A DNA stretch of 63,743 nt, counting the filler, from Caldilineae bacterium (GTDB taxonomy: Bacteria > Chloroflexota > Anaerolineae > DTLA01), in NCBI GenBank assembly GCA_037446815.1. It is 7 parts of 5 records of this genome, joined end to end, with 100 filler letters (N's around TTAATTAATTAA, not from the genome) between each part and the next. Parts side by side here need not be neighbours in the genome. Positions count along the whole stretch, not along the records: positions 44,518 to 61,068 come from JBBIHX010000004.1; positions 61,169 to 63,743 come from JBBIHX010000007.1; 5 more parts are not named here. One strand, 5' to 3'. Made by a program: the position numbers. This document shows, piece by piece, positions 61,001 to 63,743 of the stretch; the stretch's first letter is position 1, and every line of letters begins with the position of its first letter.

Positions 61001-63743
61001 ACCAACAGACTTTGGAACCGAGTCGTTCGGCGGCTCAATTTGACAGAAAGGGGCCTTCCCAATAGAATNNNNNNNNNNNNNNNNNNNNNNNNNNNNNNNN
61101 NNNNNNNNNNNNTTAATTAATTAANNNNNNNNNNNNNNNNNNNNNNNNNNNNNNNNNNNNNNNNNNNNGCAGATAAGTATACAGGAACGGTGCGCAGGCG
61201 CAAATGAGGGTGCGGGAGCGGCCTGGTTCCATTCGAAATGCGAGATTCTTCGCGGCTTCGCCGCTCAGAATGACACGTGCACCGTCAATTTGAGGCGAAG
61301 GCGAAGCGTCTCTGGGTGCGAGATTCTTCGCGGCTTCGCCGCTCAGAATGACACGTGCACCGTCAATTTGAGGCGAAGGCGAAGCGTCTCTGGGTGCGAG
61401 ATTCTTCGCCCTTACGCCGCTCAGAATGACAGGTGCACAGTCATATTGAGGCGAAGGCGAAGCGCCTCTGGAGGGAGATTCTTCGCCCTCCGCTGCTCAG
61501 GATGGCAGGTGCGTTGTCATTGCGGGAGCGCGCTCAGCGGGTGATGTCCGCGATGGCACCCTTGAGGATGATGAGCGCCCGGTCAATATCCTCGGGCTCA
61601 ATTCCGTAGTGGGTAACCATGCGGAACTGGCCGCCCTCAATGGCCTGGAACTTCAGCCCTTCCTGAGCGCATCGAGCCACCAATTGCTGCGGCGTGAATC
61701 GGTCGGTGGCGAGGCCGAAGATGAGGATGTTGCTCTGCACGCGCTCCAGGCGGATGTCAAACACGCCCATCTCGGCGAGGCCCGCGGCCAGTCGCCGTGC
61801 ATTGGCGTGGTCGTCGGCGAGGCGATCCACCATCTGCTCCAGCGCCACGATGCCCGCCGCGGCAATGATGCCCGCCTGGCGCATCCCGCCGCCGAGGACT
61901 TTGCGCAGGCGCTTTGCTTCGTACACGAAGTCCCGGCTGCCGCAGACGAGGGAGCCAACCGGCGCGGATAGCCCCTTGGACAGGCAGAAACTGACGGTGT
62001 CAAACGGTTCGGCCAGCGTGCGGGCCTCCACGCCGAGCGCGACGGCGGCGTTGAAGATGCGGGCGCCGTCCAGGTGGGCGCTCAAGTTGTGCTTGCGCGC
62101 GACGGCGACGACGGCGTCCATCTGCGCGCGAGTGAGCACCGCGCCGCCGCATCGGTTGTGCGTGTTTTCAAGCACGACCAGACGGCTGCGCGGGAAGTGC
62201 ACGTTGTCGGGGCGCACGGCGGCTTCCACTTCGGCGGGGTCCACCGTGCCGTCGTCGCGGTTGCGCACGGTGCGGACGTGCACGCCGCCCAAGACCGACG
62301 GGCCGCCTGCCTCAAACAGGAAGGTGTGGGCTTTGTCGCCCATGATGACCTCGTCGCCGCGCCCACATTGGGCCAAGATGCAGATGAGGTTGCCCATGGT
62401 GCCGCTGGCGACGAACAGGGCGGCCTCCTTGCCCATGCGCTCGGCGGCCATCTCCTGCAGGCGGTTGACGGTGGGGTCTTCGCCCATGACGTCATCGCCT
62501 ACCTCGGCGCGGTACATGGCCTCGCGCATGGCTGGGGTGGGATGGGTTACCGTGTCGCTCCGTAGGTCTATGATGCGCTGCATATCAGTACCTCCTTACG
62601 ATGCTGCGGTAGGCTTGGGGCTGTCGGCACTGCATAATCTGGAGTTCCTCGCGGGTGCGGCGGACATCGTCCAGGTTGATGCGGGCGATGCAATACCCCT
62701 CGGCCTCCTCGTCCATCATGGCGAGGACGTGGCCACGCGGCCCGAGGATGAGGCTCTCGCCGAAGAAGGCGTAGGTGTATTCTTCGCCCACGCGGTTGGC
62801 TGCCGCCAGGAAGGAGGCGTTCTCCATAGCCCGCGCGAGGGCGTAGGCCTTCCATTCCTCCTGATTGGGCTTCTCCCAGTTGGCCAACGCGATGAGGAGT
62901 TCCGCGCCGTCCAGCGCCAGCGAGCGGGCTACCTCTGGAAAGGCCAGGTCCCAGCCGAGCATGAGGCCAATGGCGCCGATGCCGGTCCCAAAGACGGGGA
63001 GCCGATACCCCGGGCGGAAGGCCAGCCGCTGTTCGCCTTTCGGGTGCAGGGCGCGGTAGTCGCCGAGAATCTCGCCGTCGGGGCCGATGAGGAGGGCGGC
63101 GTTGTATACGATGCTCTCCACCTTCTCCTTGACGACCATCCCGAAGGCGAGGTGCACTTCAAACTCCGAGGCGCGCTGGCTCATGAGGTTGGTGGTGGGG
63201 CCGGGGATGCGCTCGGCGAGTTCGGTGAAGCGGACGCCGCACTCGTACCCCGTGGTGCACAGTTCGGGGAACACGATGAGGTCCACGTCGTGCTCGCTGC
63301 GGATTTTCTCAATGAATTCCGTCATACGCACCAGGTTCTCGCCGACCTCGCCCAATTGGGGCGACATCTGCACACAGGCGACGGTGATTTCGCTCATGGT
63401 TGTCCTCCGTAGAAAAAATGTTCTAGGGCGATTATACCTCTGGTATGGCGGCGCGTCAATATCCGCCGGATGCCGACGCGCTTTGATGCGTGTTTGCGAA
63501 CGGCGGCGAAGCGTCTCGGTTGGCGAGATTCTTCGCGGCTTCGCCGCTCAGAATGACAGGTGCGTTGTTGTGCTGAAGCGAAGGCGAAGCATCTCGGCTA
63601 GCGAGATTCCTCGCGGCTTCGCCGCTCAGAATGACAGGTGCGTTGTTGTGCTGAAGCGAAGGCGAAGCATCTCGGCTAGCGAGATTCCTCGCGGCTTCGC
63701 CGCTCAGAATGACAGGTGCGTTGTTGTGCTGAAGCGAAGGCGA

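What a model noticed while it worked through the whole genome (the two positions that open the first line are those of the whole stretch)
61239..61486. About 650 'GTCAT' hairpin modules with covarying stems whose sequence frame recurs across bacterial phyla
The genome holds about 650 copies of a 24-35-nt module: GTC, a 5-bp outer stem, tandem G·A/A·G, a variable 2-6-bp inner stem and a 3-nt loop. Modules occur alone, as inverted pairs (the MITE cargo) and in 78-nt tandem arrays (exemplar C7:42085-42270). Outer and inner stems covary between subfamilies. The frame GTCATTGCGAG...GAAGCAATC, including one identical 26-mer, recurs in many bacterial phyla. No Rfam family, Y1 transposase or published description accounts for it.
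Evidence so far: - 650 regex hits, 593 of them intergenic. - 591/650 fit the architecture, with 46 distinct inner hairpins and four covarying outer stems. - On 61 distinct units, the inner helix is paired in 85.8 % of cells against 65.0 % in shuffles. 63 cells show double changes against 28.7. The covariation score is 0.291 against 0.088 (0/500 shuffles each), and no more than 0.046 when the partner is slid. - Phylum sample: 37/251 genomes and 26/146 genera carry the frame. G000 is the richest (276). The middle is variable but self-complementary. The control gives 0. - The species collection gave 130 stretches (row limit) from at least 12 phyla, including complete Bradyrhizobium and Sporomusa genomes. 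They i [...]
(Added by a program. Inside this text positions count along the whole contig: they may not be those of the stretch shown here. "Call 12" and the like, gene names such as g00115 and contig names such as C1 are that model's own, and its searches are not shown. The text may have been shortened before it was handed on; [...] marks where a part breaks off. The agent that wrote the report below was given it as the finding of a first reader that could run no searches.)

Follow-up and report, generated by a model that had tools for sequence, protein, structure and literature searches.

The report
Bulged CGTC-type REP hairpin repeats
These are small intergenic hairpin repeats of an already described class (CGTC-tagged REP elements), here in a bulged form that has multiplied to about 800 copies, partly by riding inside a miniature transposon; what moves them is still unknown.

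Summary
Window 61239-61512 is a 78-nt tandem array (3.5 copies). Each unit is a pair of GTC-headed hairpins. The draft genome holds about 780 such modules, with six covarying outer stems.

The claim that nothing in print accounts for them does not hold. Their defining features match the CGTC-tagged REP superfamily of Di Nocera et al. 2013 (PMC3733652):
- a C/T-GTC tag
- a stem that starts with AT
- a 3-nt C-rich tail
- dimers with the tags outside
- an intergenic position
- spread over many phyla
- no linked transposase

What differs:
- The stem is broken by a GA/GA(A) internal loop.
- The loop is a C(GNA)G triloop, the 'mini-hairpin DNA' motif.
- 69% of copies in this genome sit inside a TIR-MITE with 8-bp target duplications.
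- Copy number in the genus runs from 0 to 499, independently of that MITE and of Y1 transposases.

Best reading: these are selfish REP-type single-strand hairpins spread by an unknown trans-acting route that leaves no target duplication. MITE hitch-hiking and tandem duplication amplified them further. They are a new variant of a known kind, of moderate interest.

The parts
61239..61512 (.). 78-nt tandem array, 3.5 copies. Each unit is one tags-outward hairpin dimer plus a 9-nt linker.
   Evidence: TRF; sequence
61245..61274 (-). Intact module GTC ATTCT GA GCGGC GAA GCCGC GA AGAAT
   Evidence: fold
61323..61352 (-). Intact module, identical to the first
61401..61430 (-). Module with a decayed inner stem (GCGGC GTA AGGGC)
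61478..61506 (-). Fourth copy, degenerate: the head is GCC instead of GTC and the outer stem is mismatched
   Evidence: read
61284..61312 (+). Degenerate ATGCT-type partner module (GTCAATTTGAGGCGAAGGCGAAGCGTCTC), with its tail facing the minus-strand module across a 9-nt spacer (61275-61283)
   Evidence: read; compared with GTCATGCTGAGCCGAAGGCGAAGCATCTC
61362..61390 (+). Second degenerate partner module
61440..61468 (+). Third degenerate partner module (GTCATATTGAGG...)
61516..61533 (+). Truncated ATTGC-type head (GTCATTGCGGGAGCGCGC) that abuts the stop codon of the beta-eliminating lyase gene (61534-62583, minus strand)
63505..63743 (.). Second 78-nt array, 3.1 copies, cut by the contig end. 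Minus-strand modules lie at 63528-63557, 63606-63635 and 63684-63713; the last two have hybrid ATTCT/GGAAT outer strands.
60874..61024 (+). One copy of the carrier MITE. Its terminal inverted repeats are CATTCGGTTCC...GGAACCGAGTC. The flanking 8-bp target duplication is GTTCGGTG (60866-60873) and GTTCGGCG (61025-61032).
60925..60949 (+). Short module GTCATTGCGAGCGAAGCGAAGCAAT, which is the cross-phylum 26-mer less its last C. It is the MITE cargo.
60964..60996 (-). Long module GTC ATTGC GA GGGCGC GGA GCGCCC GAA GCAAT, the partner in the MITE cargo
57513..57897 (.). Three tandem MITE copies (158-nt period), each with an ATGCT + ATTCT dimer. Further dimers lie at 57063-57134, 57965-58036, 45834-45901 and 29093-29164, and a single module at 27580-27605.

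Best explanation
The array is a cluster of REP-type palindromic elements of the CGTC/TGTC-tagged superfamily, in a bulged variant.

The working unit is a heterodimer of about 70 nt. It holds two hairpin modules with their GTC tags outside and their tails 13-14 nt apart. On either DNA strand the 5' module is the 'sense' one, built as follows:
- an unpaired YGTC tag
- a 5-bp AT-started outer stem
- a tandem sheared-type G.A loop in Y-GA-R context
- a GC inner stem
- a C(GNA)G triloop

These are the rules of extraordinarily stable DNA mini-hairpins. An imperfect duplex palindrome built this way snaps into a tight hairpin once it is single-stranded.

I read the modules as non-coding selfish DNA whose hairpin plus tag is the recognition signal for a trans-acting, structure-specific enzyme. 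That enzyme copies or moves dimers without making target duplications. It is not the Y1/RAYT genes seen in this genus.

Shown:
- The structure and its compensatory changes.
- Lineage-specific bursts, 0 to 499 frame copies within one genus.
- Different module content at one orthologous intergenic site.
- No target duplications around 81 free dimers of other genomes.
- Two secondary amplification routes in this genome. One dimer became the core of a TIR-MITE that makes 8-bp target duplications, and 536 of 782 modules lie within 110 nt of such an arm. Dimers also duplicated in tandem into BIME-like arrays such as 61239-61512.

Inferred:
- The strand form is single-stranded DNA rather than RNA.
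- A dedicated or host enzyme exists.
- Cross-phylum spread goes through plasmids and phages.
For: Class features:
- Base -1 is T in 639 and C in 136 of 782 modules. The tail is CTC in 564, CCC in 148 and CGC in 45.
- In other genomes the 26-mer has C or T before GTC in 133 of 137 matches, and the tail CCA in 88 of 137.
- Tags-outward pairs make up 246 of 340 neighbour pairs, and 232 of them are spaced 13-14 nt. This is 'HH' in the paper's own wording.
- 720 of 782 modules are intergenic.

Mini-hairpin rules:
- 726 of 782 loops are GNA.
- 767 of 782 loops are closed by C-G.
- The 5' internal loop is GA in 775 of 782, in the contexts CGAG (442) and TGAG (322).

Selection for pairing: the table of outer strands is diagonal, and the inner helix pairs more than any shuffle in two of three length classes.

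Mobility and turnover:
- Frame counts are G000 276, G001 4, G002 0, G003 194 and G004 499.
- MITE-arm counts are 316, 36, 27, 9 and 2 for the same genomes.
- The orthologous IGR next to the lyase gene holds different repeats in each of five congeners.
- Three filled G004 sites are empty in G000.
- The MITE of G001 and G002 has another core hairpin in 10 of 10 copies.

No target duplication: in 81 dimers the flanking direct repeats match the re-paired control.

No enzyme next door:
- G000 has no PF01797, PF01548, PF07282 or PF00872 hit.
- Y1 loci of relatives are flanked by other, GTAG-type palindromes, and 0 of 12 have modules.

Vehicles: the dimer is 80.6% identical over 72 nt on a conjugative Aulosira plasmid, and variants occur in Helicobacter canis prophage records.
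Against: - No enzyme has been identified and no transposition event observed, so mobility is inferred from distribution alone.
- G000 is a 265-contig draft, 93.6% complete, that breaks at these repeats. A transposase flanked by them could be unassembled.
- The published CGTC families have perfect 8-9-bp stems and 4-5-nt loops. The modules do not meet this. Figure 2 of the paper and its supplements could not be seen.
- Modules sit most often in divergent intergenic regions (77 of 229, against 113 of 1476 tandem and 25 of 307 convergent). The REP-rich genomes of the paper differ in this.
- Strand tests are weak and partly contrary. Single stem mismatches on the GTC strand are A.C in 69 and G.T in 39. 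Orientation against GC skew is 42 to 66 for singles and 89 to 59 for heterodimers.
- Nearest-neighbour energies favour the GTC strand by only 0.4-0.8 kcal/mol as DNA and 1.7-1.8 as RNA.
- Copies within a genome are related by descent, so shuffle statistics overstate the case.
- 69% of copies in this genome need no mechanism other than the MITE.
Confidence: 0.6

Rival explanations
1. RNA-level element. The modules are transcribed with neighbouring genes and act as stable RNA hairpins, as 3'-end protectors, processing sites or terminator-like barriers. The dimer offers one good hairpin to transcripts from either direction.
For: Di Nocera et al. favour an RNA role for many REPs (PMC3733652, section 17). 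The RNA fold gives the same architecture, with -13.4 and -17.3 kcal/mol for the 30- and 33-nt modules and z about -3. Tandem G.A loops are stable in RNA too (my own knowledge). The array lies just 3' of the lyase gene's stop codon.
Against: There is no orientation bias against the gene strand: 108 same and 113 opposite in tandem IGRs, and 17 to 21 for singles. Modules are enriched in divergent IGRs rather than 3' of genes. No U tract follows them (read). G.T wobble is not favoured on the GTC strand, 39 against 69 A.C. The C(GNA)G triloop is a DNA-specific stability rule (PMC13037366; PMC3201870, abstract in the listing). A copy number of 0 to 499 within one genus is not what a needed regulatory signal looks like.
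Confidence: 0.15
2. Ordinary REPIN/RAYT system whose Y1 transposase is simply missing from this draft assembly.
For: All four same-genus relatives have PF01797 hits, three of them with best E about 1e-24 and several at contig ends. G000 is fragmented at repeats.
Against: The Y1 loci of G001-G003 are flanked by other palindromes, a GTAG-headed one among them, and 0 of 12 Y1 loci in relatives hold a module within the locus. G002 has 5 Y1 hits and 0 frames. G004 has only weak Y1 hits (best E 4e-9) and 499 frames. Among 21 relatives, 6 of 9 positive and 9 of 12 negative genomes have Y1. Di Nocera et al. found no tyrosine transposase gene flanked by CGTC units (section 16).
Confidence: 0.1
3. Pure passenger. 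The hairpin dimer has no mobility or function of its own. It spreads only inside TIR-MITEs and by recombination or slippage, and the cross-phylum likeness reflects transfer of those carriers.
For: 536 of 782 modules lie within 110 nt of a MITE arm, and the MITE makes 8-bp target duplications. A second MITE-like carrier with other arms holds the same dimer in G004. 24 tandem arrays hold 65 modules.
Against: G004 has 499 frames but only 2 arms of the G000 MITE, and G002 has 27 arms and no frame. Two unrelated carriers hold the same dimer, and the G001/G002 MITE has another core, so the dimer entered carriers more than once. 81 free dimers in other phyla have diverse flanks and no target duplication. 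The frame is conserved while the inner stems change by compensation.
Confidence: 0.08
4. Host-used DNA signal. The hairpin is a binding or start site for a host protein on single-stranded or supercoiled DNA, for instance a priming (ssi-like) signal, or a gyrase or nucleoid site as proposed for E. coli BIMEs.
For: Mini-hairpin motifs mark the G4-type origin, ssiA and N4 early promoters (PMC13037366, section 4.1 passages). Gyrase binding of E. coli REPs is cited in PMC3733652 (section 17).
Against: Copy number is patchy, 0 in G002 and 0 in 12 of 21 relatives. No positional regularity was seen. Many copies are decayed, as in the target array itself.
Confidence: 0.07

Closest known systems
CGTC-tagged REP superfamily (Di Nocera, De Gregorio, Rocco 2013, BMC Genomics 14:522, PMC3733652), which includes Neisseria dRS3 and Rickettsia RPE-4/6
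   Same: It has an unpaired CGTC/TGTC tag, a stem that starts with AT, a 3-nt C-rich tail, dimers mostly with the tags outside and often heterodimers, an intergenic position, hosts in several phyla (Bradyrhizobium among them), and no linked transposase. Some dimers are embedded in longer palindromes. The same outer frame, CGTC-ATTCC..GGAAT-CCA, carries the classical form in many genomes.
   Different: The published families have continuous 8-9-bp stems and 4-5-nt loops. Here a 5-bp outer stem is followed by a GA/GA(A) internal loop, an inner stem of 2-6 bp and a 3-nt GNA loop. The tail is CTC or CCC rather than CCA in this genus. Clusters are not rare. Modules are enriched in divergent intergenic regions. 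The host is Chloroflexota, which I did not see named among the phyla in the sections I read.
E. coli REP/BIME and Pseudomonas REPIN-RAYT systems (GTAG-tagged REPs)
   Same: Small imperfect palindromes with an unpaired 5' tag, inverted doublets as the likely unit, tandem mosaic arrays, single-stranded DNA recognition and no target duplication.
   Different: The tag is GTC rather than GTAG/GTGG. No flanking RAYT was found. The Y1 genes of this genus are flanked by other, GTAG-type palindromes.
Mini-hairpin DNA, d(GCGAAGC)/d(GCGNAGC) (review PMC13037366)
   Same: The core of the cross-phylum 26-mer is GCGAAGC. 726 of 782 loops are GNA, and 767 of 782 are closed by C-G.
   Different: The review describes a physical motif and a few origin or promoter sites, not a dispersed repeat family. 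I found no mention of REPs in the passages I read.
TIR-MITEs (non-autonomous DDE-type elements)
   Same: The carrier in this genome has about 20-nt terminal inverted repeats and 8-bp target duplications, is about 150 bp long and has hundreds of copies.
   Different: The hairpin dimer is cargo, not the MITE. The dimer occurs without the MITE's arms (G004) and the arms without the dimer (G001, G002). Free dimers lack target duplications.
Cyanobacterial small dispersed repeats (Elhai et al. 2008, Genome Res 18:1484)
   Same: From my own recall only: very small palindromic elements that nest inside other repeats. Calothrix (62 copies) and an Aulosira plasmid carry the frame.
   Different: Not checked. 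The paper is not held, so overlap with an SDR family cannot be excluded.

Membership tests
CGTC-tagged REP superfamily | Unpaired terminal tag CGTC (also TGTC or CCTC) | tested here: met
   The base before GTC is T in 639 and C in 136 of 782 modules. At the 26-mer in other genomes it is C in 95 and T in 38 of 137 matches. The GTC is unpaired in the minimum-energy folds.
CGTC-tagged REP superfamily | The stem starts with complementary A-T residues at positions 1 and 2 | tested here: met
   666 of 782 modules have outer stems that start with AT (ATTGC, ATTCT, ATGCT, ATTCC). The GTTGC (80) and ACCCT (36) stems keep only one of the two.
CGTC-tagged REP superfamily | A short unpaired 3-nt tail, consensus CCA | tested here: met
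   There is a 3-nt C-rich tail: CTC in 564, CCC in 148 and CGC in 45 of 782. It is CCA in 88 of 137 matches in other genomes.
CGTC-tagged REP superfamily | A continuous stem of 8-9 bp | tested here: not met
   The outer stem has 5 bp, followed by a GA/GA or GA/GAA internal loop and then 2-6 bp.
CGTC-tagged REP superfamily | A loop of 4-5 nt | tested here: not met
   The loops have 3 nt: GAA 487, GGA 158 and GCA 79 of 782. The paper notes other loop lengths in Bradyrhizobium CGTC-1 (section 6), but Figure 2 is not held.
CGTC-tagged REP superfamily | Dimers with the tags outside ('HH') predominate; tags-inside dimers are rare | tested here: met
   Of 340 neighbour pairs, 246 are tags-outside, 51 tags-inside and 43 tandem.
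CGTC-tagged REP superfamily | Not associated with a transposase gene | tested here: met
   G000 has no Y1, IS110, TnpB or IS256 domain, and its one DDE_Tnp_1 is not flanked by modules. 0 of 12 Y1 loci of relatives hold modules. The one single-gene interval flanked by tags-outward modules encodes a protein kinase.
CGTC-tagged REP superfamily | Mostly between unidirectional and convergent genes, close to 3' ends | tested here: not met
   IGRs with a module: 113 of 1476 tandem, 25 of 307 convergent and 77 of 229 divergent. The gene calls are crude.
GTAG-REP / REPIN-RAYT | GTAG or GTGG tag 0-2 nt 5' of the hairpin | tested here: not met
   The head is GTC in all six subfamilies. The definition is from PMC6006769, section 38.
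GTAG-REP / REPIN-RAYT | A RAYT (Y1) gene flanked by the repeats in the same genome | tested here: not met
   G000 is 93.6% complete, so absence is not proven.
TIR-MITE | Terminal inverted repeats plus a fixed-length target-site duplication | tested here: not met
   The carrier element meets this, with 8-bp duplications. The module or dimer itself does not: 81 free dimers show no duplication above control.
Any Rfam RNA family | A covariance-model match at or near the gathering score | tested here: not met
   Only mir-932 at 17.4 bits, against a gathering score of 54, E = 3.

The most novel reading that the evidence does not exclude
The YGTC tag plus a Y-GA-R sheared loop plus a C(GNA)G mini-hairpin is a pan-bacterial single-strand DNA 'cassette'. 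An as yet unidentified enzyme reads it. That enzyme is widely distributed and may be host-encoded, for instance a structure-specific nuclease, primase or recombinase that is not a Y1 transposase. This would give the whole CGTC-REP superfamily a way to copy itself without its own transposase and without target duplications. It would also explain three things: identical frames in more than 12 phyla, repeated capture of dimers as cores of unrelated MITEs, and bursts from 0 to 500 copies within one genus.
Probability: 0.15. Interest if true: 0.75.

Novelty: new variant of a known kind. Interest (0 to 1): 0.4.

Why it matters
How CGTC-type REPs spread has been an open question since 2013, because no transposase goes with them.

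This genus offers a sharp natural contrast. Frame copies number 0, 4, 194, 276 and 499 in five species whose compared genes are about 90% identical. The dimer has entered at least two unrelated MITEs.

This makes the question testable by gene presence/absence profiling and by biochemistry on a 25-33-nt oligonucleotide.

The link between REP cores and the 'mini-hairpin DNA' motif points to recognition on single-stranded DNA. I did not see this link stated in the texts I read.

In practice these repeats break assemblies (192 of 265 contigs carry them) and seed spurious ORFs.

Tried and rejected
- Expression: no RNA holder was listed for 61169-63743. Contigs of four DNA runs were laid. They only pile up on the repeats and stop there, and the small shares allow no claim about habitat.
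Additional files 1, 4 and 5 of PMC3733652, and its Figures 1-2, which hold the consensus sequences, were not seen. They may show whether the Bradyrhizobium CGTC-1/-3 units are the same frame.
- Elhai et al. 2008 on cyanobacterial small dispersed repeats is not held (the search found only citing papers).
- Sequence-string searches of papers hit only unrelated primer-type strings, judged from titles and abstracts (12 papers listed; 79 papers, 40 listed). 'CGTC repeats/REPs/-tagged/elements' gave 8 papers. By the listing, seven of them appear only to cite the 2013 paper.
- Parent IS of the MITE: none was found. The single DDE_Tnp_1 gene (C20) is not bounded by the MITE arms. No cargo-free MITE copy exists in G000.
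- REPtron-like search in G000: 35 single-gene intervals lie between modules. None recurs except one paralogous pair and one duplicate contig. Only one interval is tags-outward, and it encodes a protein kinase.
- Strand tests came out weak: G.T against A.C mismatches and orientation against GC skew.
- Exact insertion borders at the lyase IGR could not be read, because the IGRs of the congeners do not align.
- A fuzzy-regex scan timed out and was replaced by BLAST.
- One degenerate pattern was mistyped and matched nothing, not even in G000. Ignore it. It was redone.
- Hammerhead and K-turn likeness of 'GUC ... GA [stem] GA(A)' was considered. The strand topology differs and the 3-nt bulge is missing. 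No Rfam hit.
- A coding reading of the 78-nt (26-codon) period fails: no ORF of 50 aa or more spans the first array apart from an 84-aa fragment.
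Full report
**What is at the coordinates**

The window is a chain of contig ends from a draft genome of 3.19 Mb, 265 contigs and 65.4% G+C. 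Positions 61169-63743 are the end of contig C7.

Tandem Repeats Finder reports two arrays:
- 61239-61512: period 78 nt, 3.5 copies, 91% matches.
- 63505-63743: period 78 nt, 3.1 copies, cut by the contig end.

The first array lies just past the stop codon of a beta-eliminating lyase gene (61534-62583, minus strand). A carbon-nitrogen hydrolase gene follows that gene.

Each 78-nt unit holds two parts:
- On the minus strand, an intact module: GTC ATTCT GA GCGGC GAA GCCGC GA AGAAT.
- On the plus strand, 9 nt from the module's GTC head, a decayed module of the ATGCT type.

The array is therefore a head-to-tail repetition of an inverted pair.

The GTC is unpaired, followed by a 5-bp outer stem, a 2x2 or 2x3 internal loop, an inner stem and a 3-nt loop. 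The array as a whole folds far better than its shuffles (z -7.7 as RNA, -4.7 as DNA).

No Rfam family comes near threshold in 60000-63743.

**Genome-wide census**

A generic search for 'GTC + 5 nt + its complement within 30 nt' is not enriched: 4658 hits against 5197 in the reversed genome. But six outer stems stand out with hundreds of copies and few distinct middles.

With the full architecture required there are 1224 hits against 482 in the control. The six stems give 782 modules:

| Outer stem | Modules |
|---|---|
| ATTGC | 320 |
| ATTCT | 203 |
| ATGCT | 97 |
| GTTGC | 80 |
| ATTCC | 46 |
| ACCCT | 36 |

They are split 391/391 between the strands and lie on 192 of 265 contigs.

Pairing evidence:
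- Each 5' outer strand is followed by its own complement and almost never by that of another subfamily.
- The inner stems come in compensated versions, such as GCGGC/GCCGC, GCCGC/GCGGC, GGCGC/GCGCC and GGGCGC/GCGCCC against GGGCAC/GTGCCC.
- When copies are anchored on the frame alone, inner pairing beats all 500 column shuffles in the 30-nt and 33-nt classes. It does not in the 26-nt class.

720 of 782 modules are intergenic by a crude GC3-based gene caller.

**The fine rules of the hairpin**

Out of 782 modules:
- The loop is GNA in 726 and is closed by C-G in 767.
- The 5' internal loop is GA in 775, in the context Y-GA-G.
- The 3' side is C-GA-A or C-GAA-G.
- The base before GTC is a pyrimidine in 775.
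- The three bases after the stem are CTC, CCC or CGC in 757.

The core of the short module is GCGAAGC. A 2026 review (PMC13037366; abstract and passages read) describes d(GCGAAGC) and d(GCGNAGC) as 'mini-hairpin DNA'. [quoted passage not shown] It is not explained by standard thermodynamic parameters. It is found at single-strand replication origins and at N4 promoters.

That the stability of d(GNA) loops depends on the closing pair is also stated in the abstract of PMC3201870 (listing).

**It is a described class**

Di Nocera, De Gregorio and Rocco (2013, PMC3733652) sorted REP elements into GTAG-tagged and CGTC-tagged superfamilies. I read sections 6, 7, 8, 14, 16 and 17 and passages of 5 and 15.

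For the CGTC class they give these features:
- the tag CGTC, often TGTC
- 3-nt tails, mostly CCA
- dimers mostly 'HH', which they define as tags outside
- frequent heterodimers
- hosts in five phyla, with Bradyrhizobium, sphingomonads, Neisseria (dRS3) and Rickettsia (RPE-4/6) among them
- some dimers embedded in longer palindromes
- no linked transposase

The modules fit all of this:
- In G000, 246 of 340 neighbour pairs have the tags outside, 232 of them spaced 13-14 nt, and they are heterodimers.
Many are in Bradyrhizobium and sphingomonads.
- In those loci it is preceded by C (95) or T (38) in 137 matches and followed by the tail CCA in 88 of 137. It usually faces an inverted partner 15-35 nt away.

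As a direct link I searched CGTC-ATTCC...GGAAT-CCA, that is, one of this genome's outer stems with the paper's tag and tail. Their commonest middles are CGC GAAG GCG, CGC GAAA GCG and CGC GCAG GCG. This is the classical form with an 8-bp stem and a 4-nt loop. Its centre, GCGAAAGC, is again a mini-hairpin motif.

What the modules do not meet is the published stem length (8-9 continuous bp) and loop length (4-5 nt). [quoted passage not shown] The figure with the consensus sequences and the supplements could not be seen.

**Spread and turnover**

The frame GTCATTGCGAG-N5-24-GAAGCAAT is a multi-copy family in named genomes of four phyla:

| Genome | Copies |
|---|---|
| Bradyrhizobium ganzhouense | 154 |
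| Calothrix parasitica | 62 |
| Hymenobacter jeollabukensis | 68 |
| An Anaerolineales MAG | 70 |

The backwards control is 0 in all of them. Each genome has its own compensated inner hairpins and GNA loops (GTA, GAA, GCA, GGA).

Among 21 relatives of the window's genome, 9 carry the frame. Within the genus the counts are 276 (G000), 4, 0, 194 and 499. So G000 is not the richest. These species are 88-91% identical over the two genes next to the array.

The intergenic region that holds the array in G000 differs in each congener:
- G004 has a different set of ATTGC modules.
- G001 and G002 have unrelated repeats.
- G003 has none.

Three sites that are filled in G004 are short and empty in G000.

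**The MITE is a carrier, not the cause**

In G000 most tags-outward dimers are the core of an element of about 150 bp with roughly 20-nt terminal inverted repeats and 8-bp target duplications. The copy at 60874-61024 is flanked by GTTCGGTG and GTTCGGCG. 536 of 782 modules lie within 110 nt of such an arm.

Arm counts and frame counts are uncoupled across the genus:

| Genome | MITE arms | Frames |
|---|---|---|
| G000 | 316 | 276 |
| G001 | 36 | 4 |
| G002 | 27 | 0 |
| G003 | 9 | 194 |
| G004 | 2 | 499 |

In G001 and G002 the same arms enclose a different central hairpin in 10 of 10 copies examined. No cargo-free copy exists in G000. In G004 the same dimer sits in an element with quite different arms.

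So the dimer entered carriers at least twice and also multiplies without them.

The target array belongs to the 246 modules outside the MITE. 24 tandem arrays hold 65 modules, and three have the 78-nt period.

**How free dimers insert**

In 81 tags-outward dimers of other genomes (median length 84 nt), the longest flanking direct repeats are no longer than when the flanks are re-paired at random. There is thus no target-site duplication, unlike the MITE. This matches REP/REPIN and IS200/IS605-type single-strand mechanisms (my own knowledge of those families).

**Who moves them**

G000 is 93.6% complete. It has no Y1_Tnp, IS110, TnpB or IS256 domain. It has one IS4/5-type transposase gene that is not bounded by the repeats.

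All four congeners do have Y1 genes. Their flanks hold other palindromes, among them a GTAG-headed one, and none of 12 Y1 loci in relatives contains a module.

Y1 presence does not track the frame: 6 of 9 positive and 9 of 12 negative genomes have it.

A search for genes bracketed by tags-outward modules in G000 found one, and it encodes a protein kinase.

**DNA or RNA**

The evidence here is indirect.

For DNA:
- the C(GNA)G and Y-GA-R rules
- the lack of orientation bias against neighbouring genes (108 to 113)
- enrichment in divergent intergenic regions (77 of 229, against 113 of 1476 tandem and 25 of 307 convergent)

The other tests are weak:
- Stem mismatches on the GTC strand are A.C in 69 and G.T in 39.
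- Orientation against GC skew is 42 to 66 for singles and 89 to 59 for heterodimers.
- Model energies favour the GTC strand only slightly.
- No RNA run holds the stretch.

**Vehicles**

The whole 72-nt dimer is 80.6% identical on a conjugative plasmid of the cyanobacterium Aulosira laxa and is also present on a Novosphingobium megaplasmid. Variants with an ATCGC stem and the same bulged plan lie in Helicobacter canis prophage records.

**Verdict**

The finding is real and well described, but it is not an undescribed kind of element. It is a bulged, mini-hairpin variant of the CGTC-tagged REP superfamily. In this genome it was amplified by a MITE and by tandem duplication.

The open question is the same as in 2013: what mobilises CGTC REPs. 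This genus is a good place to answer it.

Noticed in passing
window 60874-61024 (and about 316 arm matches in G000): A TIR-MITE of about 150 bp with 8-bp target duplications. In the congeners G001 and G002 the same arms enclose a different central hairpin (AGGTGCGACGCAC-TTTCGGAA-GTGCGTCGCACCT) instead of the GTCAT dimer. No autonomous parent element was found.
   Followed up: partly
L151:6570-6760 and L151:8330-8510 (G004), against G000 C82:4922-4951 and C82:6540-6588: A second MITE-like element with other arms (ending ...CTGTGGCAGAGTACTAGCCC) carries the same hairpin dimer. The orthologous G000 sites are empty.
   Followed up: partly
L150:1150-1330 (G004); G000 C22:4829-5150 and others: The repeats nest. 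A GTAG-headed perfect palindrome (GTAGGGACAATTCATGAATTGTCCCTAC) sits inside a GTCAT module. A CCCTCACCCCAGCCCTCTCCCGAAGGGCGAGGG-type palindrome sits in the spacer of many dimers. Hybrid modules with ATTGC 5' and AGAAT 3' strands also occur.
   Followed up: no
G000 contig ends, e.g. C161:1-303, C64:1-236, C20:31853-32067: About 25 tandem arrays with a 40-nt period and no GTCAT modules. ATTCGCG-rich and ATCCGTG-rich short repeats lie next to many modules. They form a further repeat family in the same mosaic intergenic regions.
   Followed up: no
L160-L290 (131 loci from many phyla): The classical CGTC-1-like form CGTC ATTCC CGC GAAA/GAAG/GCAG GCG GGAAT CCA has the mini-hairpin DNA motif GCGAAAGC or GCGAAGGC at its centre. 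The link to mini-hairpin DNA may therefore hold for the whole superfamily.
   Followed up: partly
L291:1501-1568 (Aulosira laxa plasmid2); L292:2001-2160 (Helicobacter canis prophage record): The dimer is 80.6% identical over 72 nt on a conjugative cyanobacterial plasmid. Prophage records carry GTC ATCGC GA ... GTG GCGAT CCA variants, partly inside a called 'hypothetical protein'.
   Followed up: partly
L143:2345-2485, L140:57-392 (Y1 loci of G003 and G002): The Y1 transposase genes of the congeners are flanked by other palindromes (TGTAGGGGCGTAGC...GCTACGCCCC and TCAGCGCGGGGGTTCAGCCCCGCGC). They look like ordinary GTAG-type REPtrons living alongside the CGTC-type repeats.
   Followed up: partly
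window 1-2622; G000 C72 and C73: The draft is redundant. Window 1-2622 is both C1 and C95:9691-. C72 and C73 carry a 100% identical 811-aa ORF. Copy counts may be slightly inflated.
   Followed up: no
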